DNA of 30,644 bases, from positions 1 through 30,644 of IMG/VR virus record IMGVR_UViG_3300020045_018668, one strand, 5' to 3'. Below are positions 2,295 through 30,644 of this stretch, piece by piece; the stretch's first letter is position 1, and every line of letters begins with the position of its first letter. Position numbers and translations under genes: made by a program. A model generated the notes under the pieces. The model did no database searches. It had not been told where the DNA came from and saw only the letters and a program-made list of their open reading frames with translations. This stretch comes from a virus (taxonomy: Duplodnaviria > Caudoviricetes).

Positions 2295-2747
2295 TTACAA
2301 TCCTGCGCTGCTGTTGATATAGATATTAGTGGAGGTGCCGCCCGAGCAGGCAGGAACCACAGAAATACCCAAAGCAATGCAGATCCAATAGATCGTCCCG
2401 CTCGTTGGGTATGGATATTGAGGAATTTGGTTTCCCGTGCAATTGGCTGGAACCGACTGGCCTTGGCGGAGCACATACGTTCCCGGCAGAATAGTAATGC
2501 CGCCGACCGTCGTTACGGTGGTTATTTGAACGATGGAACCTGGGGAATACGCGCTGGCGTTGCTGTAAAAATCGGCAAAGCTAGTGTCCCCCGAATCCAT
2601 CAGGCGCCGGCTAGAAAGGCGGGCTTTGAGGGCGTCCAGTTGAAACTGTTGGGCGCGAGCGAGGGCGGCGAGGCTGATCACGTCGCGCCAGAGCTTGCGG
2701 ACATCGTCGCCAGCTTTGGGAGCGGGAAGATTGAGCGGTCCTGGCAT
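2295..2747 (-). CDS. Tail-associated hypothetical protein
   Basis: 150 aa, tightly packed in the tail operon; N-terminal coiled coil. Confidence 0.7.
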   Translation of the reverse strand: MPGPLNLPAPKAGDDVRKLWRDVISLAALARAQQFQLDALKARLSSRRLMDSGDTSFADFYSNASAYSPGSIVQITTVTTVGGITILPGTYVLRQGQSVPANCTGNQIPQYPYPTSGTIYWICIALGISVVPACSGGTSTNIYINSSAGL

Positions 2748-2750
2748 GGG

Positions 2751-3515
2751 TCAGGGGTAGAGTTCGGAGTCCCAATGACCGGCCGGGCCGCCCAGCCAGG
2801 TAAGCGTCTTTTTGTGATGCTGGCCGTTAAAGTCCAGATCATCGGCATGGCGGAGCCAATCCACGCCGGTGCCGAGATAACTGGCCAACGGTCCACCGGG
2901 GGTTTCGATCGTTCCGCCATCGGTCAGACCGGGTATAGCCCACGAATACGTGGACCAGGTATAGGTCCAGCCGGCGAGATAATAGGTCTCTTTCCCCTCC
3001 AGCAGTTTATCCGCCAGTTTTTTGGCCAGGGTGGAGAGGCCGGTATAAGAGGAATCGCGGGTGGCGGAGGTCTGACTATCCACGGCCGTGCGAACGGCGG
3101 CACGAGTGGCCCGGTCCAGACTGGCGAAGAGCGGATGCTGCTCCAGCTTTGGGTTCACTTCAAATGGGTGCAGGCCGTATTCATCCGGGGGTAGAATGGC
3201 GCCGGGACCGGGATCGCCGCCGCCACCGCTATCGCCGCCGGCGCCGACATATTCAATGGTCAGTTCGCCGATCTGCTTGGGTTTCCGATCCACGGTGCTT
3301 TGTTTGATCATCCAGCCGGCCATGCTGCCCACGCCATAAGAGCGCGGGAACGGCGCCGAGGCGATACAAAGGGAGTGCAGGCCGGTGAACTTGCGGATAC
3401 ATGTGAACGGCGTGGCAAAGGTGTATTTGGGGGAATCCGGAGCCTCCACCAGCACCGTATTCACCCCCGCGGTAAAGAGGCTGGACTTGCCTTTCCAAAC
3501 AATGGTGCCGGCCAT
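2751..3515 (-). CDS. Tail-tip/hub-region hypothetical protein
   Basis: 254 aa, downstream of the tape measure gene, 3 bp gap to the next gene. Confidence 0.7.
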   Translation of the reverse strand: MAGTIVWKGKSSLFTAGVNTVLVEAPDSPKYTFATPFTCIRKFTGLHSLCIASAPFPRSYGVGSMAGWMIKQSTVDRKPKQIGELTIEYVGAGGDSGGGGDPGPGAILPPDEYGLHPFEVNPKLEQHPLFASLDRATRAAVRTAVDSQTSATRDSSYTGLSTLAKKLADKLLEGKETYYLAGWTYTWSTYSWAIPGLTDGGTIETPGGPLASYLGTGVDWLRHADDLDFNGQHHKKTLTWLGGPAGHWDSELYP

Positions 3516-3521
3516 AGGGTT

Positions 3522-3770
3522 TTATTCGGGTTGAACGGCCGCCGAAGGCGGGACAAACGCGGGATCCGCGGCCTCCGCCAGTTTGAAGAGTTCCGCCAGG
3601 GGAATCCCGACGGAACGATCCCCTCGCTTCAGCACCACCCCGGCCGCGCCCAGGGTGGCATTCCGGAAAAAGCCGGTGACGGGCTCATCATGGACGGATT
3701 GGAGGATGCCGCGGGGTTCCACCCAGGTGGCTTCGCCGGCTTCGGCGGTGAGATTGGTGAGGAGGATCAT
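3522..3770 (-). CDS. Hypothetical protein
   Basis: 82 aa; ATGA overlap with the tape measure stop. Confidence 0.65.
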   Translation of the reverse strand: MILLTNLTAEAGEATWVEPRGILQSVHDEPVTGFFRNATLGAAGVVLKRGDRSVGIPLAELFKLAEAADPAFVPPSAAVQPE

Positions 3771-5176
3771 ATATTTTGGAGCGCCAGCGGGGTGCTGCTC
3801 ATTTTTTCCAGAAACTTGTTGGTGAGCTTGGATTGTTCAACGAGGGACTTGGTATTTCGTTCCGTTCCTTTTGCGGGATCATTCGCCCCGCCGCCGTTGA
3901 ATATAAAACCCATTTTTTCCAGGCTGGTGACATCGGGCTTTTGATAATTGGTGCTGACAAAGTCCGGCACGGTGGATTTAGACAAGGCCGTAGAGGCCAC
4001 CTCCGATTTGGGAGCGCGGGCGGCAAAGCCACCGAGCTTGCTGAAGAGCATTGAATATTGTTCTTTGAGTGAATCCGTTCCCATTTTCAACGAATCATTT
4101 GCCGATTTGTTCATCTCGGTTAGATTCATTCCTTCGGTGAAAAACTCGGCGCCCTTGCCTTTGCGCTCGGTTAAAATATCGGCCATAGACTGGGCTTTGA
4201 AACCGTCAAATCCGGCGGCCTTGCCGATCTTGGGAATCTTGCCGATGAACTCCATGAATTTCTGGACGACAAATTCCATCCCTGCCTGTAAATAGATCAG
4301 CGGCGTTTCCAGCGCCTTGAGCAGCGCCACGCCGATTTTTTGGAAGATTCCTGGAGCCATCACCGCTGCGGCCGATAATCCGAAAACAATGGTGTCTCCG
4401 ATTAGCTCGGCCAATTTTCCTTCCCTAAACGCCTGGAACGCGCCGGAGAACATGGTGCCGATGTCCTGGCCGATGGCCACGAGATCAATTTTTTGGAGGG
4501 CTTCCACCACGCCTTGCAGCGTCGGCACCACGCCCTCCGCAATGCCGGCGAACATGCCGCTTAAAGAGCCTTTGACCCGGGTGATGGTATCGCCCAATTT
4601 ATCGAAGGCGGCGGCGTTGCGGGCAAAGACGGCGGCCTCGCGCGCCGAATCGGCGATGGTTTGTTTGAACCCTTCCGCGTCGCGACTGATCTGCATCATG
4701 TTCGCGGCCCCCTCGCGACCGAACAGCCGGGAGGCCACATCCATGCCAGCCGCCTTATCTAATCCCGCCAGCGCGCCGGATACGGCCTCGAACTGACCGG
4801 GCGCGTCCAGGCCTTTTAAATCCTCCACGCTCAAGCCGAGCGCGGCAAAGGCGCCCTCAGTTTTTTTCCCCATCTCATCCACCCCGCTCAGGGATTTATT
4901 GAGGCGGTTAATCATTCCCGGAAGGGACTCCGCCGAGATACCCACTACCTTGAATGCTTCCTGCATCTGGTAGAGGTTGCCGACCGTTTCACCAGTGCGG
5001 GCCGAAAGATCTTGGAGCGCGCCGCCGCGTTCAATGGCCCCCCAGACGCCTTCCACGGTTTCGGAAAGCAGTTTGCCCACCGAGAGGAACGCCACCATGC
5101 GGCCCGCCGCGCGATCCAGCCCGGACGCGAAGGCGCTGGTTTCCAAACCGAGGGCAAAGGTGAGCACGCCAGCCAT
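3767..5176 (-). CDS. Tail tape measure protein (short)
   Basis: 469 aa, Ala/Gly/Leu-rich helical; LSARTG..V..L, LFGREGA motifs; follows the tail chaperone genes. Confidence 0.85.
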   Translation of the reverse strand: MAGVLTFALGLETSAFASGLDRAAGRMVAFLSVGKLLSETVEGVWGAIERGGALQDLSARTGETVGNLYQMQEAFKVVGISAESLPGMINRLNKSLSGVDEMGKKTEGAFAALGLSVEDLKGLDAPGQFEAVSGALAGLDKAAGMDVASRLFGREGAANMMQISRDAEGFKQTIADSAREAAVFARNAAAFDKLGDTITRVKGSLSGMFAGIAEGVVPTLQGVVEALQKIDLVAIGQDIGTMFSGAFQAFREGKLAELIGDTIVFGLSAAAVMAPGIFQKIGVALLKALETPLIYLQAGMEFVVQKFMEFIGKIPKIGKAAGFDGFKAQSMADILTERKGKGAEFFTEGMNLTEMNKSANDSLKMGTDSLKEQYSMLFSKLGGFAARAPKSEVASTALSKSTVPDFVSTNYQKPDVTSLEKMGFIFNGGGANDPAKGTERNTKSLVEQSKLTNKFLEKMSSTPLALQNI

Positions 5177-18901: not shown

Positions 18902-19042
18902 TTAGTGCGGTAAAGCGATGGGCGGCGGCGGCGGCAGCGGCGTGAGGCGTTTAATGCGCCGATAATTCCGGGGTGAGCCGCGCTTGACGCGGTGCTCGCT
19001 CAAATCCCGGACGGCTTGCAAGGTGGCTTCGTAATTTTTCAC
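18902..19042 (-). CDS. Small basic Pro-rich protein (46 aa)
   Basis: GTGA overlap with the lipase stop; MKNYEATLQAVRDL...PLPPPPPIALPH ends 4 bp before the next start. Confidence 0.45.
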   Translation of the reverse strand: MKNYEATLQAVRDLSEHRVKRGSPRNYRRIKRLTPLPPPPPIALPH

Positions 19043-19770
19043 GCCAATCCTTTCAGCCGTTCCTGGTATTCGGCCAGGAAGTGATTCGAGAGAAACGCCA
19101 GCTCATGTTCCCGCCAACTGCGCCAGAATCCAAAAACATCGGCGAACAGGGCCGCGCCGATGAAGGGATTCACCTGCATCGTGCCGTTACGTTTGAGAAA
19201 AATCTCCGTGCCGCAATCCCGGTAGCCCATAAGCAACGTCGGCACCAGGGGAACGGGATCGCCCTCATTGGCCACGGCAAAGGTGCGGTCGCCCAGGGCG
19301 ACATTGTAAAGTTGGGCGAAGCATTTGTTGCCCACGCGTGGCTGGCCGAACGTATAGACTTGCTCCACATTGAAGCCCATGCGCTGCAATTCCAGCGCGG
19401 CTAGAATGGCCAGCGCCCCGCCGAGCGAATGGCCGGTGACCACCAGCGGCCGATTTTTGTAGCCGCCCAGAATCCGGATCAGATCGCCCAGGATACTTTC
19501 GGCGCCATCCAGAAACCCATGATGCACTTCGCATTGGTCGCCATTGGCTTCTTCCACGAGGAGCCGCTTGGTGCATTGGACATCGGTCAGCCAATCACGC
19601 AGATTGGTGGTGCCCCGGAACGACACCAGAACGGTCGCACCTGGATCAATAACCACTTGGGTGTCCGTGGTGGCATTGGCCAACGTGGGTGCGGCGCGAT
19701 ACGCCATGGCGGAAGCCCGGGCGCAGGCATTGGCATTGCCCAGATCAAATTTTGTGGCGCTTGGATTCAT
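19039..19770 (-). CDS. Class 3 lipase (alpha/beta hydrolase)
   Basis: SFRGT, DW.TD, VH.GF, TGHSLGGALA, YTFGQPRVG, D.VP.VP and terminal His. Confidence 0.92.
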   Translation of the reverse strand: MNPSATKFDLGNANACARASAMAYRAAPTLANATTDTQVVIDPGATVLVSFRGTTNLRDWLTDVQCTKRLLVEEANGDQCEVHHGFLDGAESILGDLIRILGGYKNRPLVVTGHSLGGALAILAALELQRMGFNVEQVYTFGQPRVGNKCFAQLYNVALGDRTFAVANEGDPVPLVPTLLMGYRDCGTEIFLKRNGTMQVNPFIGAALFADVFGFWRSWREHELAFLSNHFLAEYQERLKGLA

Positions 19771-22419: not shown

Positions 22420-24675
22420 ATGAACGAAGACAATAACAGACTTTCCGAACCGGCTGACTTGCGGGAAAACCCTGCCAGCGGCGCGAAGACACCCGCAATG
22501 AATCGTTGCGATGCGTGGCCGGTTCGGATTCCTTTTGGTGGCCGGCCACAGGGCCTTGAAATAGAACCGGAGGCGAACTCCGGCGAGTTGGCGCGGACTT
22601 TATTGGATTTGGCCGCGCCGGTCTTCATTGAACATCAAGCCCCGAATGGGGCGGCCACCATTCCCGCTTACCCCCAAGACGCTACGGCCGGCGACGACAA
22701 TGCTGCGGCGTCCGCTTCTCAGTTCACGGCGGCAGCGTCGCCGCTGCCGGCCGTTACTTTCACGGGTGCCGCCCGTCGCGCCACCGCCACCGAGGCGGAA
22801 CTGGTGGAGGCCAATCAGAAAAAAGCGATTTGCGAAAAGTTTTTGGAACTCACTAAATCCGGCTACTCGTTAAACCAGGCGGCCACGGCCTGCGGCAAAA
22901 GCCCGAGTTGGTTCAGCGGGTCCGCTTCCATGCTGGCGCGGTATCAGCGCGACGGCCTCGCGGGCCTGCTGCCGCAGCGCAGCGCCACCACCTCGGTTGG
23001 AGAGCTCACCGCGCAGATCGAAGCGCTTACCTGGTTCCTACCGGCCGCGCAGTTTTTCTATCTCATCACAAATCGCACCAATGTTTCCGGTTCGGTGCCG
23101 GAGGCCATCCGGCGCGTGATCTCGCTGCCCAATCTGCCGGTGGGCTGGACCAACACGGTCAAAGCGCGTTTCCTGAAAAAACTCGGCCTCTCCCTGGTGC
23201 CCACCTGCCCGGATGTTTTGCGCGAGGAAATTCTGGCGCGGCAAAAGGCCGGCCAGCCCTTGGTGCCAGACCGGATCAGCAAAGCCATTACGCGCGCCGT
23301 GACCAGCGCGGTGGTGGAACAATATCGCCGTCCGCATGAGACGGGCCTGAACTATCTGCAATGCCCCGGAACGATGATGATCTCCCGCCGCAACGGGCTT
23401 CAGGAATTTATCCGGGCGGGCGACATCCTCGAAGCCGATGACGGCAGCATTAATTTCCCGGTGTGCATTCCGTGGACGTCACCCAATGGCGGCTTGATTA
23501 CCGAGACGCCTTGCAGCGCCAACTATGGCGTGATCATTGGTCGGTTCCAATGGCTGCGCACGATTGACGCGGCCACGCGGTTCCGCCCAGGCTGGGTGTT
23601 TGTGGCCCGCCAGCGCGGCGGCTATCGCGGCGCGGACGTGCTCACGCTGATGCACGGCATCACCAAACAGCATGGCGCCTGGGAGGAATATCGGTTTGAG
23701 CGCGGCGTCTTCAAAAGCAACCTGGTCAAGCAGACGGTCAAGCTGCTCGGCTCGCGCCTGCACACGGTCATTTCGCCGCACTCAAAGCCGTTTATCGAAG
23801 GTGGCTTCAATCAGGATTGGACGAAACTCTCAGTGCATTTTCCCCAATGCGACATTGGCCGGTATCGCGGCGACACGGAAGAAGCCAACAAGCTGGTGCA
23901 GAGTTGCCGCACCGGGGCCAAAGACCCGCGCAAATATTTCCCGATGCTGGCGGACGCCTTGCAGGCGTTTGCACAAATCACCGAGGAAGAGAATCGCACG
24001 CTGGTGAAAAGCCGGAACTCCGGCCAGTGGGTGCCTGAAGAAAAATGGGCGCGCGAGACGCGGGATAATCCGCTGCGCCAGATTGAATCCGCGATGGCCT
24101 TCATGTTCGCGCCCTACGCGCTGGAATGGACGGTCAAGGGCATGTTGGTGGGCGGGCGCGTTCCGCTGTTTGAGGATATGAGCGTGCCGTTTGATTTCTC
24201 TGCGCCGTATTTGCAGGAGTTCAACGGCGCCCGCGTGCGGCTGCACTTTGACCCCACGGCGCATAAATGTTTTGCCACCCCGGTGCTGATGCAGGATTGG
24301 AACGGCCACCGCGCCGGCGAGGTGTTGGGGCAACTTCAGCAGGTGAATGAGACCACCGGCTACATCCGCATGATCCTGGGCTGGGGTGATGATGCCGGAA
24401 CGATTGGCCTCAAGGCCAAACAACAGGCGGCGGTGGCCATGCGCCGGGAAGTGCGCACGGTGATGCCCGGCGGCCGCAGCGGCTACACCCGCAGTGAGGT
24501 GAAGGCGCTGGATCAGACGGGCATTGTGGAACGCGGCGCACGGCTGGAAGCTGGAGTTCCAGCTTCAGCTTGTTCCCCCAAGCGCGAACCCCAGCCAGAT
24601 CGCGCCACGGAACGCGCGGCCAAGCGCGAAGAGCTCGCAAAATTTGAACGGGAGAATCAACACCTGTTCGTTTAA
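22420..24675 (+). CDS. MuA-like DDE transposase
   Basis: HTH (YSLNQAATACGKSPSW), ILEADD, ID.ATR, FERG, SKPFIEGGFN; followed by an AAA ATPase. Confidence 0.85.
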   Translation: MNEDNNRLSEPADLRENPASGAKTPAMNRCDAWPVRIPFGGRPQGLEIEPEANSGELARTLLDLAAPVFIEHQAPNGAATIPAYPQDATAGDDNAAASASQFTAAASPLPAVTFTGAARRATATEAELVEANQKKAICEKFLELTKSGYSLNQAATACGKSPSWFSGSASMLARYQRDGLAGLLPQRSATTSVGELTAQIEALTWFLPAAQFFYLITNRTNVSGSVPEAIRRVISLPNLPVGWTNTVKARFLKKLGLSLVPTCPDVLREEILARQKAGQPLVPDRISKAITRAVTSAVVEQYRRPHETGLNYLQCPGTMMISRRNGLQEFIRAGDILEADDGSINFPVCIPWTSPNGGLITETPCSANYGVIIGRFQWLRTIDAATRFRPGWVFVARQRGGYRGADVLTLMHGITKQHGAWEEYRFERGVFKSNLVKQTVKLLGSRLHTVISPHSKPFIEGGFNQDWTKLSVHFPQCDIGRYRGDTEEANKLVQSCRTGAKDPRKYFPMLADALQAFAQITEEENRTLVKSRNSGQWVPEEKWARETRDNPLRQIESAMAFMFAPYALEWTVKGMLVGGRVPLFEDMSVPFDFSAPYLQEFNGARVRLHFDPTAHKCFATPVLMQDWNGHRAGEVLGQLQQVNETTGYIRMILGWGDDAGTIGLKAKQQAAVAMRREVRTVMPGGRSGYTRSEVKALDQTGIVERGARLEAGVPASACSPKREPQPDRATERAAKREELAKFERENQHLFV

Positions 24676-24692
24676 CCAACAAAAAATGCACC

Positions 24693-24902
24693 ATGAGAAT
24701 CGTATCTCCAACCCCTGAAGCGTCCCTGTCGGCCATCCGGCTCCTGAGCGAGACCGCCATCAATAATCCACCGCGCAAGAATCTGTTCACGGGTTTAATC
24801 CCGGTGGCGGCGCCGCGCGCCAGCCTGAATGAATTGCCGCCGCTGGTGGATTCCCCGCCCGAAAAATGCACCGCCCGCCGGAGGCTGTTGTTCGCCGTTT
24901 AA
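24693..24902 (+). CDS. Hypothetical protein
   Basis: 69 aa ORF filling the A-B gap, with AC-rich leader. Confidence 0.35.
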   Translation: MRIVSPTPEASLSAIRLLSETAINNPPRKNLFTGLIPVAAPRASLNELPPLVDSPPEKCTARRRLLFAV

Positions 24903-24925
24903 CGTAACCTTCACCCCCTCTAAAT

Positions 24926-25963
24926 ATGCACCAAGAAAAAATCCTCCGGCTGCGCGCCCTGGCGCGGGCCGTGCAAGACTACCAACTCGAACGCGGCCTC
25001 TCGGATAGCAAGCTATGCACCAAGGTCTCGCAGGTGGGATCCACCAAGACTTACAAGCGCATCCTAGCGGACGGCGACAGGCTGGAGGAGCTCAATGTTG
25101 ACAAGCAACTCACAAACTATGAGGCGGCGGTGGAGTTCATCAAGATTCTCCGCGCCTCGGAACGCCCGCCGGAGCCGGAGTATGACGACTTTGCCAACAT
25201 TGAAGATTCCGTAACCGCCGTGGCCCGTGCCATGGCGGAGGAAACCATCGCCCGCTTCATCGTGATCGAAGGCGAGAACGGCACGGGCAAGGACGCGGTC
25301 CAGAACGCGCTGATCAAGAAATGGCCCAACATCATTCTCCAGGTGGAAGCGACCGAACTCTGGCGCGAATCCATGGCGGTGCCGCTGGCGGACATTCTCA
25401 ATGCGCTCTCGCTCCGCCGCCAGCGCGATGGGGAAGGCGAAAAATTCGTGGTGCCTTCGCAGCCGCTCGGCCGGCTGGCGCTGATCCTGGAGGAATTGAA
25501 GAAGCGCAAACTGATCCTGATCGTGAACGAAGGCCACCACATGGGGCCGCGGGCGCTGAACATGATCAAGACGCTGATCAATCAGACGCCGGTGGTGCCG
25601 GTGATGATGTGCGTGCCAAAACTGCTGGCCCGCCTGGTGAGCGGCAATTACGAGGAAGCCATTCAACTGTTTGGAAATCGGCTGTGCGAGCGCGTGCGCC
25701 TGAGCAGTCCGCAACCGGATGAGATCGGGCTGATGTTGGACCGGCGCGGCGTGCGGTTTGATACCGATCTAACCCGCATGTCCGCCGCCAATACGCTGGC
25801 GGCTGAGGCCCCGCAGTTTGGCAATTGGCGGTATGTGACCCAGGTCTGCCGCGAGGCGCATACCGCCAGCAAAGAGCGGCCGCTGAACGCCCAACAGTTC
25901 GCTGCGGCCAAGGGTATCGCCGAGAAACGCCGCATCATGCGCCAAAAAACGAACTCGAATTGA
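24926..25963 (+). CDS. MuB-like AAA+ transposition ATPase
   Basis: N-terminal HTH, GENGTGKD Walker A, LILIVNEGH Walker B, QL..R arginine finger. Confidence 0.85.
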   Translation: MHQEKILRLRALARAVQDYQLERGLSDSKLCTKVSQVGSTKTYKRILADGDRLEELNVDKQLTNYEAAVEFIKILRASERPPEPEYDDFANIEDSVTAVARAMAEETIARFIVIEGENGTGKDAVQNALIKKWPNIILQVEATELWRESMAVPLADILNALSLRRQRDGEGEKFVVPSQPLGRLALILEELKKRKLILIVNEGHHMGPRALNMIKTLINQTPVVPVMMCVPKLLARLVSGNYEEAIQLFGNRLCERVRLSSPQPDEIGLMLDRRGVRFDTDLTRMSAANTLAAEAPQFGNWRYVTQVCREAHTASKERPLNAQQFAAAKGIAEKRRIMRQKTNSN

Positions 25964-27353: not shown

Positions 27354-27917
27354 ATGATCAGCCTAACCGACACGAACACCGGAACCACCCGTAGCTTTGA
27401 CCTGGGGGATATTGAAAAATTGGCCCTTAAATTCTCGGATCAGCACGCGGCCCTCTCGGCCATCGTGGCGGAATTGGAGGCGGCGAAACAAAAGCTGATG
27501 CGCCAGCACCTGCCGGCCTTGCGCGCGGCGGTGGCGCGGGCGGCCGCTGCCAAGCTCACGCTGCACACGGCCATCGCCGCGGCGCCGGGTTTGTTTGAAT
27601 CGCCCCGCACGCGCATTTTCAGCGGCATCAAGGTGGGTTTTCAAAAGGGCAAGGGCGGGATTGAATTTGAGGACGCGGATAAAGTCTGCGCCCTGATCCG
27701 CAAGACGTTTGGCGATGATGCCATAGCCTACCTCCGCACCACGGAAGCGCCGGATAAGAAGATGCTGGCGGACCTCCCGGTGAGCGAGTTGAAGAAGATC
27801 GGCTGCACGGTGGCGGACACCGGCGATGTGGTGGTGATCAAACCCACGGACAGCGAGATCGAGAAAACCGTGGCCGCGCTGCTCAAAGACGCGGTGGAAA
27901 GCGAGGTGCAATCGTGA
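27354..27917 (+). CDS. Gam-like host-nuclease inhibitor
   Basis: Coiled coil then LFESPRT....GIKVGFQKGKG...E.PDK..L.......LKKIG; start reassigned to ATG 27354. Confidence 0.7.
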   Translation: MISLTDTNTGTTRSFDLGDIEKLALKFSDQHAALSAIVAELEAAKQKLMRQHLPALRAAVARAAAAKLTLHTAIAAAPGLFESPRTRIFSGIKVGFQKGKGGIEFEDADKVCALIRKTFGDDAIAYLRTTEAPDKKMLADLPVSELKKIGCTVADTGDVVVIKPTDSEIEKTVAALLKDAVESEVQS

Positions 27918-27933
27918 GCACGGAATATCGTTA

Positions 27934-28060
27934 CTTTAACGACCAAGCTCACCGACGCGGCAACGAAACCAAACTATATGCACGACCCATACGAACGCCC
28001 CGAACCGATGGCGCAACCTGAACCGGCGAAAGCCGCGTTCAGTGCAGCGCAGTGTTCTGC
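27934..28060 (-). repeat. attC-like site 1
   Basis: + strand: CTTTAAC-6-GCTCACCGACGCGGC ... GCCGCGT(T)CAGTG(C)AGC-5-GTTCTGC. Confidence 0.85.
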
Positions 28061-28211
28061 GTCACCCACGGACGCGGAGATAACCGACCTCAAAATGAGG
28101 CTCAATCAAATCATCTGGGAATACGCGCCAGCCGAGACAACCATCGGAGACGCCGAGGGCTTGGCCTGCAAAATATTCAACAGCGTCAGGAAGGGTAAAT
28201 ACCTGATATGA
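27978..28211 (+). CDS. Cassette 1 hypothetical protein
   Basis: 77 aa; ATG lies inside the attC1 loop. Confidence 0.7.
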   Translation: MHDPYERPEPMAQPEPAKAAFSAAQCSASPTDAEITDLKMRLNQIIWEYAPAETTIGDAEGLACKIFNSVRKGKYLI

Positions 28212-28212
28212 C

Positions 28213-28320
28213 GCAGAACGCTCCCGATCAGCGACCTGCTGAATAATTTATGGCTACCAATTCAACTCAACGGCCCGATGCCGAGCGAACCGCAGGTTCG
28301 ATGCACCGGGATTGTTCTGC
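28213..28320 (-). repeat. attC-like site 2
   Basis: GCAGAAC-6-GATCAGCGACCTGC ... GCAGGT(T)CGATG(C)ACC-6-GTTCTGC. Confidence 0.8.
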
Positions 28321-28516
28321 GGCTCGTCCGATTGGAACGACAGGCAGAAAATACCGAAGTGTCAGGGCGCTAATCATCGGAGAGAAGCTCCCGAAGAAAG
28401 TGCTGCGTGAATTTGACAGGCTCGTGCGCCTCGACCGCAAGCGAGAGCGTGAACAGTCAAAGCCGCAGAACGCTCTGGCTGAGCCAAGCGGAAAAGAAAA
28501 GCATAAACAACCATGA
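28250..28516 (+). CDS. Cassette 2 hypothetical basic protein
   Basis: 88 aa; starts in the attC2 loop, stops in the attC3 loop overlapping the next ATG. Confidence 0.65.
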   Translation: MATNSTQRPDAERTAGSMHRDCSAARPIGTTGRKYRSVRALIIGEKLPKKVLREFDRLVRLDRKREREQSKPQNALAEPSGKEKHKQP

Positions 28517-28571
28517 ACATTACCGAAAAATCAGCCGCGCCAACCGCTTTGGCTCCAGCCAGTGGTTCGAC
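28465..28571 (-). repeat. attC-like site 3
   Basis: GCAGAAC-6-GCTGAGCCAAGCGG ... CCGCTT(T)GGCTC(C)AGC-5-GTTCGAC. Confidence 0.9.
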
Positions 28572-29034
28572 GACATGCAACGAATGCGGCGGAAATCACG
28601 AACCATCTGGTGCGCGAATCGCATGTATCAACCACTGGAAACGCCGCGCCATCATCGCGGAAAATGAACTGCTCGTAGCTAAATGCTTCGGGGATAAAAC
28701 TCTGGATTGGCTGGTGGATAACGTCCACAAAATCGAAGTGGACTGTGATGCTGCCTACTGTGATGAGCAGCAAAAACCGGCGCTATCCTTCCGCTCGCTA
28801 AAATTCCACGACTACCGGCCTTGGTGTGTGAAGGGTGAATCTCGCGGACGCCTGCGGGACGCACTGAGAAAAATAATGGCTCTACAAGAATCGCCCAACG
28901 AAATAACGGTGCTCAAATCGGCGCTGGAGCGCATTCGTAGCTTTCCAGTCCATAGCGAGCCGGTTGGGGGAGCGTATGCCATGCAAGACATAGCGCATGA
29001 AGCCTTGTCGTCGAACGACAAGCTGAGCGACTGA
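28513..29034 (+). CDS. Cassette 3 hypothetical protein with CxxC...H...C motif
   Basis: 173 aa; starts in the attC3 loop, ends in the left arm of attC4. Confidence 0.75.
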   Translation: MNITEKSAAPTALAPASGSTTCNECGGNHEPSGARIACINHWKRRAIIAENELLVAKCFGDKTLDWLVDNVHKIEVDCDAAYCDEQQKPALSFRSLKFHDYRPWCVKGESRGRLRDALRKIMALQESPNEITVLKSALERIRSFPVHSEPVGGAYAMQDIAHEALSSNDKLSD

Positions 29035-29114
29035 CATGAGCGCGCCGATGACATCCGAATCCACCCAAGACGCAGCCCGCGCTCATGGCAGTTCGCTCCA
29101 GCGCATGGTTGGGC
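29010..29114 (-). repeat. attC-like site 4
   Basis: GTCGAAC-5-GCTGAGCGACTGACATGAGCGCG ... CGCGCTCATGGCAGT(T)CGCTC(C)AGC-5-GTTGGGC. Confidence 0.9.
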
Positions 29115-29178
29115 ATCCGTCGCATTTTCAACGACTTACAAAGCCTCAAAAATAAATGCAAAAATCGTCTCAAAACGC

Positions 29179-29207
29179 TTGACACTCTCACGATAAGCGG
29201 TTATCGT
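29179..29207 (+). promoter_or_regulatory. Cassette 4 internal sigma70 promoter with operator palindrome
   Basis: TTGACA-17 bp-TATCGT; ACGATAA-N4-TTATCGT at 29190-29207; ATG at 29217. Confidence 0.7.
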
Positions 29208-29216
29208 ATCTGCCTG

Positions 29217-29582
29217 ATGAATAAATACCAAATCAAAGCCAACAAAGAGAAGCTCGCCCGAATCCAATCCGGCGAACTCACACGCATCGCTGACCGCGCC
29301 ATCGCCGCTGCCAAAGCGGTAATGGTCAAGGGCAGCCACACGATAGACGCATCCGATATGACGCAGAGCGCGAACCCGCTCGAACGCCAAATCGGCGAAC
29401 AAATGGACGGCTACACCGTCTCGGCCAAAATCAGCGCGAAGGTGGAACTGGACAGCGCCGCCCGCGAAATCTGCAAGATCGGCACGATTGATAAAGTAAT
29501 CGCGCCCGAAGCGATGGCCGAATGGAATCGCATCGAAGCCGTCGCGAACGAACTCGGCCTCAACGAAGAGGAGGTCGCATGA
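29217..29582 (+). CDS. Cassette 4 gene A, hypothetical (121 aa)
   Basis: Start reassigned to ATG 29217, just after the promoter. Confidence 0.7.
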   Translation: MNKYQIKANKEKLARIQSGELTRIADRAIAAAKAVMVKGSHTIDASDMTQSANPLERQIGEQMDGYTVSAKISAKVELDSAAREICKIGTIDKVIAPEAMAEWNRIEAVANELGLNEEEVA

Positions 29583-29806
29583 AGCTCTACCGAATCACGA
29601 TGGGTAAACGGGTCGCGGGCGGTAATCGTCATGACTGGTATTCCGGCCAGTTGGAGCACATGGCCTCGTATGGCGATGTGAACGAAGCCAAAGCCCATCT
29701 CAAGGATGGCAACCCGGACGGCTCGGATATTTGGCCGGAAGTCTATGACGAGGCGGGCAACCGAATGGTGCTTCAGGGCCGCAAACTCGTGAGGATGGGC
29801 GAATGA
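29579..29806 (+). CDS. Cassette 4 gene B, hypothetical (75 aa)
   Basis: GAGGAGG SD; ATGA overlap. Confidence 0.7.
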   Translation: MKLYRITMGKRVAGGNRHDWYSGQLEHMASYGDVNEAKAHLKDGNPDGSDIWPEVYDEAGNRMVLQGRKLVRMGE

Positions 29807-29973
29807 ATAAGGCCGCCCAAGCTCTCGGTCGGCTCGCCAAAGGCGTGCCGAAAAACTACTCGCCCGCTGAAATCGAGCGGCGCAAAGAAATGATGGAAGC
29901 CATCAACGCGAAAAAACGGCAGGTGTCGAAAGCGAAGAAACGCAGGATGCCCAACGATGGAGGTCAGCGATGA
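29803..29973 (+). CDS. Cassette 4 gene C, small basic putative DNA-binding protein (56 aa)
   Basis: MNKAAQALGRLAKGVPKNYSPAEIERR...; ATGA overlaps at both ends; below the ORF-track cutoff. Confidence 0.65.
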   Translation: MNKAAQALGRLAKGVPKNYSPAEIERRKEMMEAINAKKRQVSKAKKRRMPNDGGQR

Positions 29974-30079
29974 GCCGTCATGGGCATAAAGAGATGGAAC
30001 GGTGCAAGCGCATCGCAGCGAAAACGAGCGTCGAAGTCTTCAAGGCTAAGGCTCATTCGCTGCACCGACTTTGTTCTGC
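29949..30079 (-). repeat. attC-like site 5
   Basis: GCCCAAC-6-GGTCAGCGATGAGCC ... GGCTCAT(T)CGCTG(C)ACC-6-GTTCTGC. Confidence 0.88.
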
Positions 30080-30248
30080 TGCGTCGTTGCTCGCCGAACT
30101 CGCTTCCGAATTGGACAAGCGTGCTGAGGGCAAGACGGTAGCGCAGGACGAACTGCACACATACCGCGACATGCGCTTCAACGCGGAGATACTGCGGATG
30201 GCACAAAAGGTCATCGAACGTGAAACGCAGCAGAACGACCGGAGCTAA
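29970..30248 (+). CDS. Cassette 5 hypothetical protein
   Basis: 92 aa; ATG lies in the attC5 inner stem. Confidence 0.65.
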   Translation: MSRHGHKEMERCKRIAAKTSVEVFKAKAHSLHRLCSAASLLAELASELDKRAEGKTVAQDELHTYRDMRFNAEILRMAQKVIERETQQNDRS

Positions 30249-30337
30249 CACACGGCGCGATTAACCACGATGCTCAAAATCACAACCGAATAAACTGCCG
30301 ACGCGGGTCGCCGTTGTGTCCAGCGACCTTGTTAGGC
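30230..30337 (-). repeat. attC-like site 6
   Basis: GCAGAAC-7-GCTAACACACGGCG ... CGCCGT(T)GTGTC(C)AGC-6-GTTAGGC. Confidence 0.82.
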
Positions 30338-30354
30338 ATCAACCGAAAGCACAA

Positions 30355-30570
30355 ATGTTCACAGTCGAAATCAGAATCAACGGCGCAATGATAGCGCACA
30401 TCTACGGTCGCAACATCGCGCCCCTGCCAAACGGCAAGACGCGATACGAATACGAATACTACGAGGCGGAAACGCACAAGGTGCAAAACGGCTGCGTGGA
30501 ACATCTGCGAGAGGATGGGATAGTGCCGCTCGTGTCTTCGATACTGGATGACGTGTCGCATGATGCCTAA
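30355..30570 (+). CDS. Cassette 6 hypothetical protein (71 aa)
   Basis: MFTVEIRINGAMIAHIYGRN...; TAA stop lies within the GCCTAAC box; GTG 30316 is an alternative start. Confidence 0.7.
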   Translation: MFTVEIRINGAMIAHIYGRNIAPLPNGKTRYEYEYYEAETHKVQNGCVEHLREDGIVPLVSSILDDVSHDA

Positions 30571-30644
30571 CGCAATAGCTGAGGGACGGGCGGAGAGCGC
30601 CACGTCGCCGAAGCCAACCAACTCACCACTATGAAAAAACGCAC
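30565..30644 (-). repeat. attC-like site 7 (truncated by the window end)
   Basis: GCCTAAC-6-GCTGAGGGACGGGC; ATG at 30631 in the presumed loop. Confidence 0.7.

What the first reader, a model, noticed from the sequence alone, without database searches (positions are those of the whole stretch)
27940..30570. Inside-out cassettes: attC antisense to the gene, with the start codon inside the attC itself
Seen: the 8 nt L box and extrahelical bases are on the right arm of the + strand, so the sites are oriented on the - strand while every gene is on +. Start codons lie inside the hairpins (27978, 28250, 28513, 29036, 29970, 30631). The right arm therefore encodes similar N-terminal peptides (AAFSAAQCSA, AGSMHRDCSA, TALAPASGST, AHSLHRLCSA). 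Established: in classical integrons most ORFs are co-oriented and end just before their attC. Inference: here each cassette carries its attC at the gene's 5' end, where it also serves as translation-initiation region and coding sequence, and it is read from the phage early promoter rather than from Pc.
Basis: partly seen in the sequence, partly recalled or inferred. Interest (0 to 1): 0.85.

Follow-up and report, generated by a model that had tools for sequence, protein, structure and literature searches.

The report
Mirror-image integron cassettes in Mu-like phage
A Mu-like phage carries a row of six swappable gene cassettes joined by integron-type DNA hairpins, with the genes facing the opposite way to bacterial cassettes, so that in four of the six the hairpin lies at the front of the gene and likely supplies its start codon and first amino acids, a layout that would keep the genes readable in any order.

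Summary
Real. Six complete attC-type hairpins (plus one cut by the contig end) follow gam in a Mu-like phage. All six carry both extrahelical bases on the right arm of the + strand, like a bottom strand, and every gene is on +. The mobile unit is shown directly: an independent contig holds cassette 5 (29953-30237, 1-2 differences) from left-arm AAC to left-arm AAC between other neighbours. Cassettes 1, 2, 3 and 5 open inside their hairpin. Cassette 4 (39-codon stub, own promoter, three downstream genes) and cassette 6 (start after GTT) do not. In related phages 84 of 106 cassettes are reversed, against 10 of 64 in chromosomes. Related phages add an IntI-family gene and an attI-like site at the 3' end; 60 of 60 read-through genes cross AAC as Asn, and 35 of 63 hairpins overlap stop and start (ATGA). 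No integrase lies in this truncated contig; recombination strand, translation starts and promoter are untested. This scan noted the design before in at least ten other genomes; my nine literature searches found no description. New variant of integron; interest 0.75.

The parts
27934..28060 (-). attC-type site 1 (top strand = -; + strand has bottom-strand anatomy); predicted crossover AA|C at 27939/27940, left end of the array
28213..28320 (-). attC-type site 2 (weakest stem, score 11.5)
28465..28571 (-). attC-type site 3; holds the ATGA overlap of ORF2 stop and ORF3 start
   Evidence: contig in run X4 ends at 28472 and goes on into another hairpin
29010..29114 (-). attC-type site 4; member of a head family (MSAP..AHGSSLQR[LM]V) found on other gene bodies
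29949..30079 (-). attC-type site 5; ATGA overlap; 78% like a hairpin in an IntI-bearing phage (L267)
30230..30337 (-). attC-type site 6; holds ORF5's stop and a 7-codon ORF (30270-30293)
30565..30644 (.). left arm of site 7, cut by the contig end; ATG at 30631
27940..28218 (+). cassette 1 (279 bp; 11-bp terminal inverted repeat); ORF 27978-28211, 77 aa, starts in hairpin
28219..28470 (+). cassette 2 (252 bp); ORF 28250-28516, 88 aa, starts in own hairpin, stops in site 3
28471..29015 (+). cassette 3 (545 bp); ORF 28513-29034, 173 aa, mosaic body, starts in own hairpin, stops in site 4
29016..29954 (+). cassette 4 (939 bp): 39-aa stub 29036-29155, promoter-like TTGACA-17-TATCGT 29179-29207, ORFs 29217-29582, 29579-29806, 29803-29973
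29955..30235 (+). cassette 5 (281 bp); ORF 29970-30248, 92 aa, 35 codons inside the hairpin; found intact between other neighbours
30236..30570 (+). cassette 6 (335 bp); ORF 30355-30570 (PHROG 3491) starts after GTT, stops at the TAA of TAAC
27354..27917 (+). Mu Gam-like gene, last conserved early gene before the array
22420..25963 (+). Mu-like transposase (22420-24675) and AAA+ MuB-like gene (24926-25963) of the same early operon

Best explanation
This is a row of mobile gene cassettes bounded by attC-type hairpins, in which the genes lie on the strand that carries bottom-strand anatomy, each unit runs from the C of one left-arm AAC through its hairpin and gene to the next AAC, and an integron integrase likely cuts and joins them at AA|C. 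Shown: site anatomy, the unit's ends, gene strand, hairpin ATGs in the coding frame, frame-0 passage through AAC. Inferred: (1) IntI acts on the folded + strand as in bacterial integrons; the enzyme would come from beyond the contig's right end, from the host or from a co-infecting phage. (2) New cassettes enter at an attI at the right, 3' end, so the newest gene is last in the early transcript, the reverse of the Pc gradient. (3) Because the gene is on the bottom strand the hairpin must precede it. The hairpin therefore serves as a standard joint: upstream genes read AAC as Asn, take their stop from the next hairpin and hand ribosomes to that hairpin's ATG (ATGA overlap or an A-rich leader like the phage's own genes), so any order stays translatable. 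(4) Transcription comes from the Mu-like early operon, plus the promoter inside cassette 4.
For: Anatomy; PMC5027507. Unit ends: contigs of runs X1/X2 (one sample) match 29953-30237 with 1-2 differences, preceded by a different R' and followed by a different hairpin arm. X4 matches 28253-28472, then another hairpin. Five homologues of ORF5 and one of ORF2 diverge right after the Asn of AAC. Of 19 homologous body pairs, the 4 with a hairpin at least 0.9 alike have it upstream. Strand: 84 of 106 viral cassettes reversed against 10 of 64 chromosomal; 28 of 32 classical beside six chromosomal IntI genes. Machinery: phages G022, G025 and G036 carry IntI over the TIGR02249 cut-off and G029 under it, on the gene strand right of the array, the same attC/IntI geometry as chromosomal L235. 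In 80 viral IntI loci, upstream cassettes were 47 reversed, 15 classical, 1 tie. An attI-like AAC..AAC motif lies 31-53 nt before intI in 15 of 21 loci. Starts and coupling.
Against: No IntI or attI-like motif in this contig, and two related Mu-like phages have no array after gam. 2 of 6 window cassettes do not start their gene in the hairpin. In relatives 26 of 94 have only a downstream ATG and 17 of the 63 have both. First extrahelical base is C, where G is usual (PMC5027507), though C also stands in 34 of 39 chromosomal IntI-linked sites. MFE folding favours the + strand in only 4 of 6 modelled circular sites. Heads and bodies are re-assorted at GTT, which the AA|C crossover does not explain. 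15 of 19 body pairs were uninformative. No recombination, RNA or protein data.
Confidence: 0.8

Rival explanations
1. The cassettes are reversed as described, but the hairpin ATGs are by-products; true starts lie after GTT and the hairpin is only a 5' leader.
For: Cassettes 4 and 6 here; 26 of 94 relatives with only a downstream ATG; attC-less homologues of ORF3's body exist (P0004); site-4 heads show no amino-acid selection (6 synonymous, 15 non-synonymous changes).
Against: 63 of 94 coding frames against 18 of 188 other frames hold an open hairpin ATG; ATGA overlaps 35 against 6 and 1 by phase. The first in-frame start codon after GTT lies at +39 (ATG, ORF1), +84 (GTG, ORF2), +147 (GTG, ORF3) and +12 (TTG, ORF5), behind conserved residues in ORFs 1-3. 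Head lengths keep frame (75 nt in 8, 78 nt in 1).
Confidence: 0.1
2. The hairpins are phage linker repeats shuffled by homologous or illegitimate recombination; the likeness to attC is historical and no integrase acts on them now.
For: No integrase in this contig or in 16 of 24 other array-bearing viral records (many are fragments); heads re-assort at GTT; ORF3 is a mosaic of two modules.
Against: Exchange points fall exactly at the AAC triplet with unlike sequence on both sides; all structural marks are kept in 6 of 6 sites; IntI and attI-like sites end related arrays, including arrays that share this window's hairpin families (L267, L252).
Confidence: 0.06
3. The sites recombine in the classical sense relative to the genes (crossover at the right-arm G|TT, hairpin leaving with the upstream gene) by an integrase with reversed strand choice.
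For: The same head occurs on unrelated bodies; the terminal inverted repeats fit either reading.
Against: Near-identical cassettes end at left-arm AAC on both sides; intI and attI-like sites lie where a normal integron with this attC polarity has them.
Confidence: 0.04

Closest known systems
Integron gene cassettes and attC sites (IntI, attI, Pc), as described in PMC5027507
   Same: AAC/GTT R boxes, unpaired spacer, 7/8-nt L boxes, two extrahelical bases 6 bp apart on the arm opposite the cleaved AAC, length within 57-141 bp, unit bounded at AA|C; in relatives intI lies on the bottom strand beyond an attI-like site.
   Different: Genes on the bottom strand; hairpin at the 5' end and translated; stop borrowed from the next cassette; no Pc needed; first extrahelical base C. 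The paper treats the top-strand gene orientation as essential for expression from Pc.
Phage-borne integrons and CALINs (PMC9892861)
   Same: attC clusters in phage genomes, cargo of small unknown genes and DNA methyltransferases, phage attC bottom strands recombined by IntI1.
   Different: TJE1 is classical. The text I read does not describe reversed genes, starts in attC or a phage IntI clade. By eye, two sites of its Myoviridae example MW202573 look reversed, but the text notes only several ORFs between sites.
Synthetic attC sites embedded in coding sequence (PMC7439510)
   Same: One DNA stretch serves as a recombination hairpin and as protein code.
   Different: Those were designed; these are natural, N-terminal, carry the start codon and recur across phages.
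Translational coupling in class 1 integrons: ORF-11 in attI1, gcuF1-blaOXA-28 (review PMC8876359)
   Same: A recombination site holds an ORF end or start that couples translation across a cassette junction.
   Different: There it concerns attI1 or single fusions; here most attC sites are built as coupling joints with a fixed frame at AAC.
Self-promoting multi-gene cassettes such as toxin-antitoxin cassettes of chromosomal integrons (PMC13108822)
   Same: Cassette 4 has its own promoter-like site and several small genes.
   Different: No toxin-antitoxin family was matched; function not shown.

Membership tests
attC site / integron cassette | R' and R'' boxes with AAC and GTT triplets | tested here: met
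   6 of 6; four R'' boxes read GTTC.., looser than GTTRRRY; each body has an 11-12 bp terminal inverted repeat
attC site / integron cassette | Two extrahelical bases on one arm, about 6 bp apart, the far one T, the near one usually G | tested here: met
   C and T on the right arm in 6 of 6, 5-6 bp apart because the T lies in a run; C also in 34 of 39 chromosomal IntI-linked sites
attC site / integron cassette | Unpaired central spacer of 5-6 nt and length 57-141 bp | tested here: met
   spacers 5-7 nt, lengths 105-131 bp (range from PMC5027507)
attC site / integron cassette | Mobile unit bounded at the AAC of R' | tested here: met
attC site / integron cassette | Bottom-strand-selective recombination by IntI | not testable with these tools
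   needs a conjugation assay
Classical integron | Genes on the top strand, ending before their attC, read from Pc | tested here: not met
   all genes on the bottom-like strand
Classical integron | Adjacent intI and attI | tested here: inconclusive
   none in the contig, which ends inside site 7 on the side where they would lie (47% complete); present in related phages
CALIN (attC cluster lacking an integrase) | Two or more attC sites and no intI nearby | tested here: inconclusive
   six sites, but the right flank is missing
Mu-like transposable phage | Mu portal, protease I, gp36, Gam, DDE transposase, AAA+ partner | tested here: met

The most novel reading that the evidence does not exclude
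Phages run their own mirror-image integron lineage, with a viral IntI clade and attI, in which the attC hairpin is a reusable start-and-coupling module that is grafted onto ordinary phage genes by a second exchange at the GTT side. Such arrays would be cassette factories caught at work: attC-less homologues of cassette 6 and many head/body swaps show the before and after. This would make the open question of how cassettes are created directly testable.
Probability: 0.25. Interest if true: 0.92.

Novelty: new variant of a known kind. Interest (0 to 1): 0.75.

Why it matters
Integron theory ties strand choice to gene direction: the bottom strand is recombined so that genes face away from Pc. Here the same sites and geometry carry genes the other way round, inside a phage early operon, and the recombination site doubles as start codon, N-terminal coding sequence, stop for the upstream gene and likely coupling joint. 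It gives Mu-like and other phages of soil and freshwater bacteria a precise way to swap early accessory genes (many relatives are DNA methyltransferases). It explains families of small phage proteins with shared meaningless heads and N-type tails. It is a natural version of coding attC sites that had only been engineered. Head/body swaps at GTT may also expose how new cassettes are made, which to my knowledge (recalled) is unsolved.

Tried and rejected
Plain MFE folding of the array-form sites often missed the hairpin and did not pick a strand; modelled circular forms favoured + in 4 of 6, so strand was judged from extrahelical bases. My first scanner, with one extra base only, found 1 of 6 sites. 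The metagenome scan with ORF3 gave one locus, without an array. Long terminal inverted repeats are not special: median 9 bp in both viral and chromosomal cassettes. 'Heads join bodies at a valine codon' is not general: GTT falls in frame 0, 1, 2 in 17, 27, 19 of 63. No amino-acid selection seen in the site-4 head family (8 equal-length sequences). No Pfam, NCBIfam or Atlas lead for the cargo; only PHROG 3491 (unknown function) for ORF6. The ORF5 model is two long helices with the first running through the hairpin-coded part (pLDDT 86-96 for residues 1-50, pTM 0.40, 5 sequences): too weak to use, and no fold search was run. No RNA holder listed. No contig extended the array beyond 30644. The joint 27957-30310 has 21-letter sides and other letters between, so it is another hairpin and not an excision. 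The IntI tree is the quick tree only, four badly called rows were left out, and the query was viral, so it does not prove a virus-only clade. Phage Rctr41k has an IntI with classical-sense cassettes. Look-ups of earlier findings by sequence and by 'IntI attI coupling' words gave nothing.
Full report
Context. The window is a whole viral contig of 30,644 bases, linear and about 47% complete. It is a Mu-like phage: portal, protease I, gp36, terminase, transposase, AAA+ protein and Gam. The array begins 16 bases after the gam stop, on the same strand, and runs to the contig end. Two related Mu-like phages (gam 68% and 56% identical) have ordinary genes and no hairpins after gam. No tyrosine recombinase is in the contig.

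The observation. A scanner that allows two extrahelical bases on either arm found six complete sites and nothing else in the window; 30 shuffles of the region gave 1 hit in all. In all six the extra C (8-nt L box) and the extra T lie on the right arm of the + strand. PMC5027507 (12 passages read) places the extrahelical bases of the recombined bottom strand on the arm opposite the cleaved AAC, the near one usually G and the far one T, 6 bp apart. The aadA7 bottom strand printed in the supplement of PMC9892861 has the order seen on the window's + strand. Two controls support the call. The scanner labels the TJE1 sites classical. In six chromosomal loci with an IntI over the TIGR02249 cut-off, sites of this polarity lie left of an intI on the same strand, with 28 of 32 genes on the other strand and C as first extra base in 34 of 39 sites. 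So the window's + strand is the bottom strand, and its genes lie on it.

The mobile unit. Terminal inverted repeats of 11-12 bp flank each body but fit either orientation and are as long in chromosomal cassettes. The decisive data are contigs from other runs. A 13.3-kb contig in X1 and a 4.8-kb contig in X2 (one sample) match 29953-30237 with 1 and 2 differences: from the AAC of site 5's left arm to the AAC of site 6's left arm. Before it stands a different R' and after it a different hairpin arm. X4 holds 28253-28472 and then enters another hairpin; a short X1 contig holds the end of cassette 4 followed by another hairpin. At protein level five ORF5 homologues share head and body and diverge right after the Asn coded by AAC; an ORF2 homologue does the same; two ORF1 homologues share head type and body. 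Among 19 homologous body pairs in other loci, 4 had a hairpin at least 0.9 alike, all upstream; the rest were at background on both sides. The unit is hairpin first, gene second.

How general. Pattern scans of viral contigs gave 106 distinct cassettes outside the window: the best ORF is on the bottom-like strand in 84, on the other in 17, tied in 5. The same arm motif in genomes (133 loci, about 50 of the 80 listed titles Verrucomicrobiota, which is my only hint at the host) gave 64 cassettes in 25 loci: 54 classical, 10 reversed. Loci were de-duplicated by exact cassette sequence only, so counts are not independent and the P values are indicative.

Starts. Of 163 viral cassettes from 53 loci, 69 were set aside (no single open frame, or body under 120 nt). 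In the other 94 an open in-frame ATG lies in the hairpin in 63; the two non-coding frames have one in 18 of 188. 17 of the 63 also have an ATG within 45 nt after GTT, 26 have only that, 5 have neither. In the window ORFs 1, 2, 3 and 5 fit; ORFs 1, 2 and 3 have A-rich leaders like the phage's own genes. Cassette 4 does not: its hairpin family heads methyltransferase-like and other bodies elsewhere, but here it gives 39 codons, followed by TTGACA-17-TATCGT (10 of 12; 3 such sites in 10.6 kb against 3.9 expected, so the match alone is weak) and three genes. Cassette 6 does not either: four attC-less homologue loci begin at the same Met as 30355.

Stops and coupling. Of the 94 genes, 60 stop inside the next hairpin and all 60 cross AAC as an Asn codon; 19 stop at the TAA of TAAC, 11 before, 4 not within the stretch examined. 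Reading into a hairpin in that phase, the first stop overlaps the hairpin's coding ATG as ATGA in 35 of 63 (6 and 1 in the other phases) and lies within -8 to +10 nt in 50 (17 and 10). In the window ORF2/ORF3 and ORF4c/ORF5 overlap as ATGA and ORF3 stops 1 nt before 29036. Coupling itself is inferred.

The enzyme. 8 of 25 array-bearing viral records have a tyrosine recombinase. Four lie just right of the array on the gene strand and match TIGR02249, three over the cut-off; they align with a chromosomal IntI across the insertion that I recall as IntI-specific. A scan with these found 230 viral relatives, 80 kept; cassettes upstream of them were 47 reversed, 15 classical, 1 tied, and 11 downstream cassettes of the other polarity were classical. 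A quick tree groups 30 viral proteins (support 99), but reversed arrays also lie beside integrases outside it. 15 of 21 loci of that group show an AAC-N5-..CAAC motif 31-53 nt before intI, which I read as attI; by eye several arrays without intI end in a like motif. Hairpins like sites 5 and 6 occur in such phages (L267, L252). The geometry of attC, attI and intI is thus ordinary and only the genes are flipped. The window ends before the place where attI and intI would be, so which enzyme serves it is open.

What the model does not explain. The same head sits on unrelated bodies (P0026, P0034, L267, site-4 family) and the same body on different heads (P0002, P0030). Some second process joins heads to bodies at or near GTT. 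It may be the route by which cassettes are made; this is the novel case and is untested.

Known and new. Phage attC clusters and their recombination by IntI1 are published (PMC9892861: I read part 2 of 7 of the text, section 3.4, 12 passages and part 1 of 2 of the supplement; figures and the Dryad annotation files were not seen and could show reversed genes for MW202573, two of whose sites look reversed by eye). Coding attC sites have been engineered (PMC7439510, passages). Coupling at attI1 is known (PMC8876359, passages). PMC13108822, PMC8138268 and PMC8618304 were seen as passages. Nine searches of an open-access library returned no description of reversed, translated cassettes or of a phage integron of this build; subscription papers are not covered. 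Earlier notes of this scan report the design in at least ten other genomes; they are not independent support.

Verdict. Observation confirmed, interpretation right in its core and too wide on starts, promoter untested. It works like an integron cassette array and meets the attC tests that can be run, but fails the classical gene-orientation feature: a new variant of a known kind. Interest 0.75.

Noticed in passing
window 28573-29034: ORF3's body is a mosaic: an N-terminal CxECGGxHEPSGAR module and a C-terminal ALERIRSFPVHSEPVGGAYAMQDIAHEAL module, each found on unrelated proteins; an R'-like remnant (CCCAAC..SPNE..) lies between them near 28893, as if two cassettes had fused.
   Followed up: partly
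window 29179-29973; L247:2835-3900: Promoter-like site, two variable ORFs and a small basic MNxAAQALGRLAKGVPK protein form a module that recurs inside a cassette in L247 and outside this context in run contigs; function unknown.
   Followed up: partly
L245-L288, 30-55 nt before intI: The phage intI start lies only 31-53 nt after the attI-like site, so it would be co-transcribed with the cassette operon, unlike divergent bacterial intI.
   Followed up: partly
G025:C1:59459-60397; G036:C1:29479-30414: The TIGR02249 search reported one stop inside each of these matches, although ORFs of 318 and 326 aa with the catalytic motifs were read there; probably at the match edge, not checked.
   Followed up: no
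L277, L297, L298, L304-L306; L325 (Rctr41k): Other phages carry IntI with classical-sense cassettes downstream and co-oriented, a second phage integron layout.
   Followed up: partly
L326 (MW202573) 2620-3900: The Myoviridae CALIN of PMC9892861 looks reversed by eye (extra G on the right arm, genes on +, methyltransferase ending PNV); my scanner did not score these sites.
   Followed up: partly
window 19039-19770 (-): A class 3 lipase / esterase gene sits beside the terminase region of this phage.
   Followed up: no
L004, L008: Other phages with Mu-like genes (judged by eye from translations) carry such arrays at other positions, after the MuB-like gene or among head genes, so insertion sites vary.
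   Followed up: no
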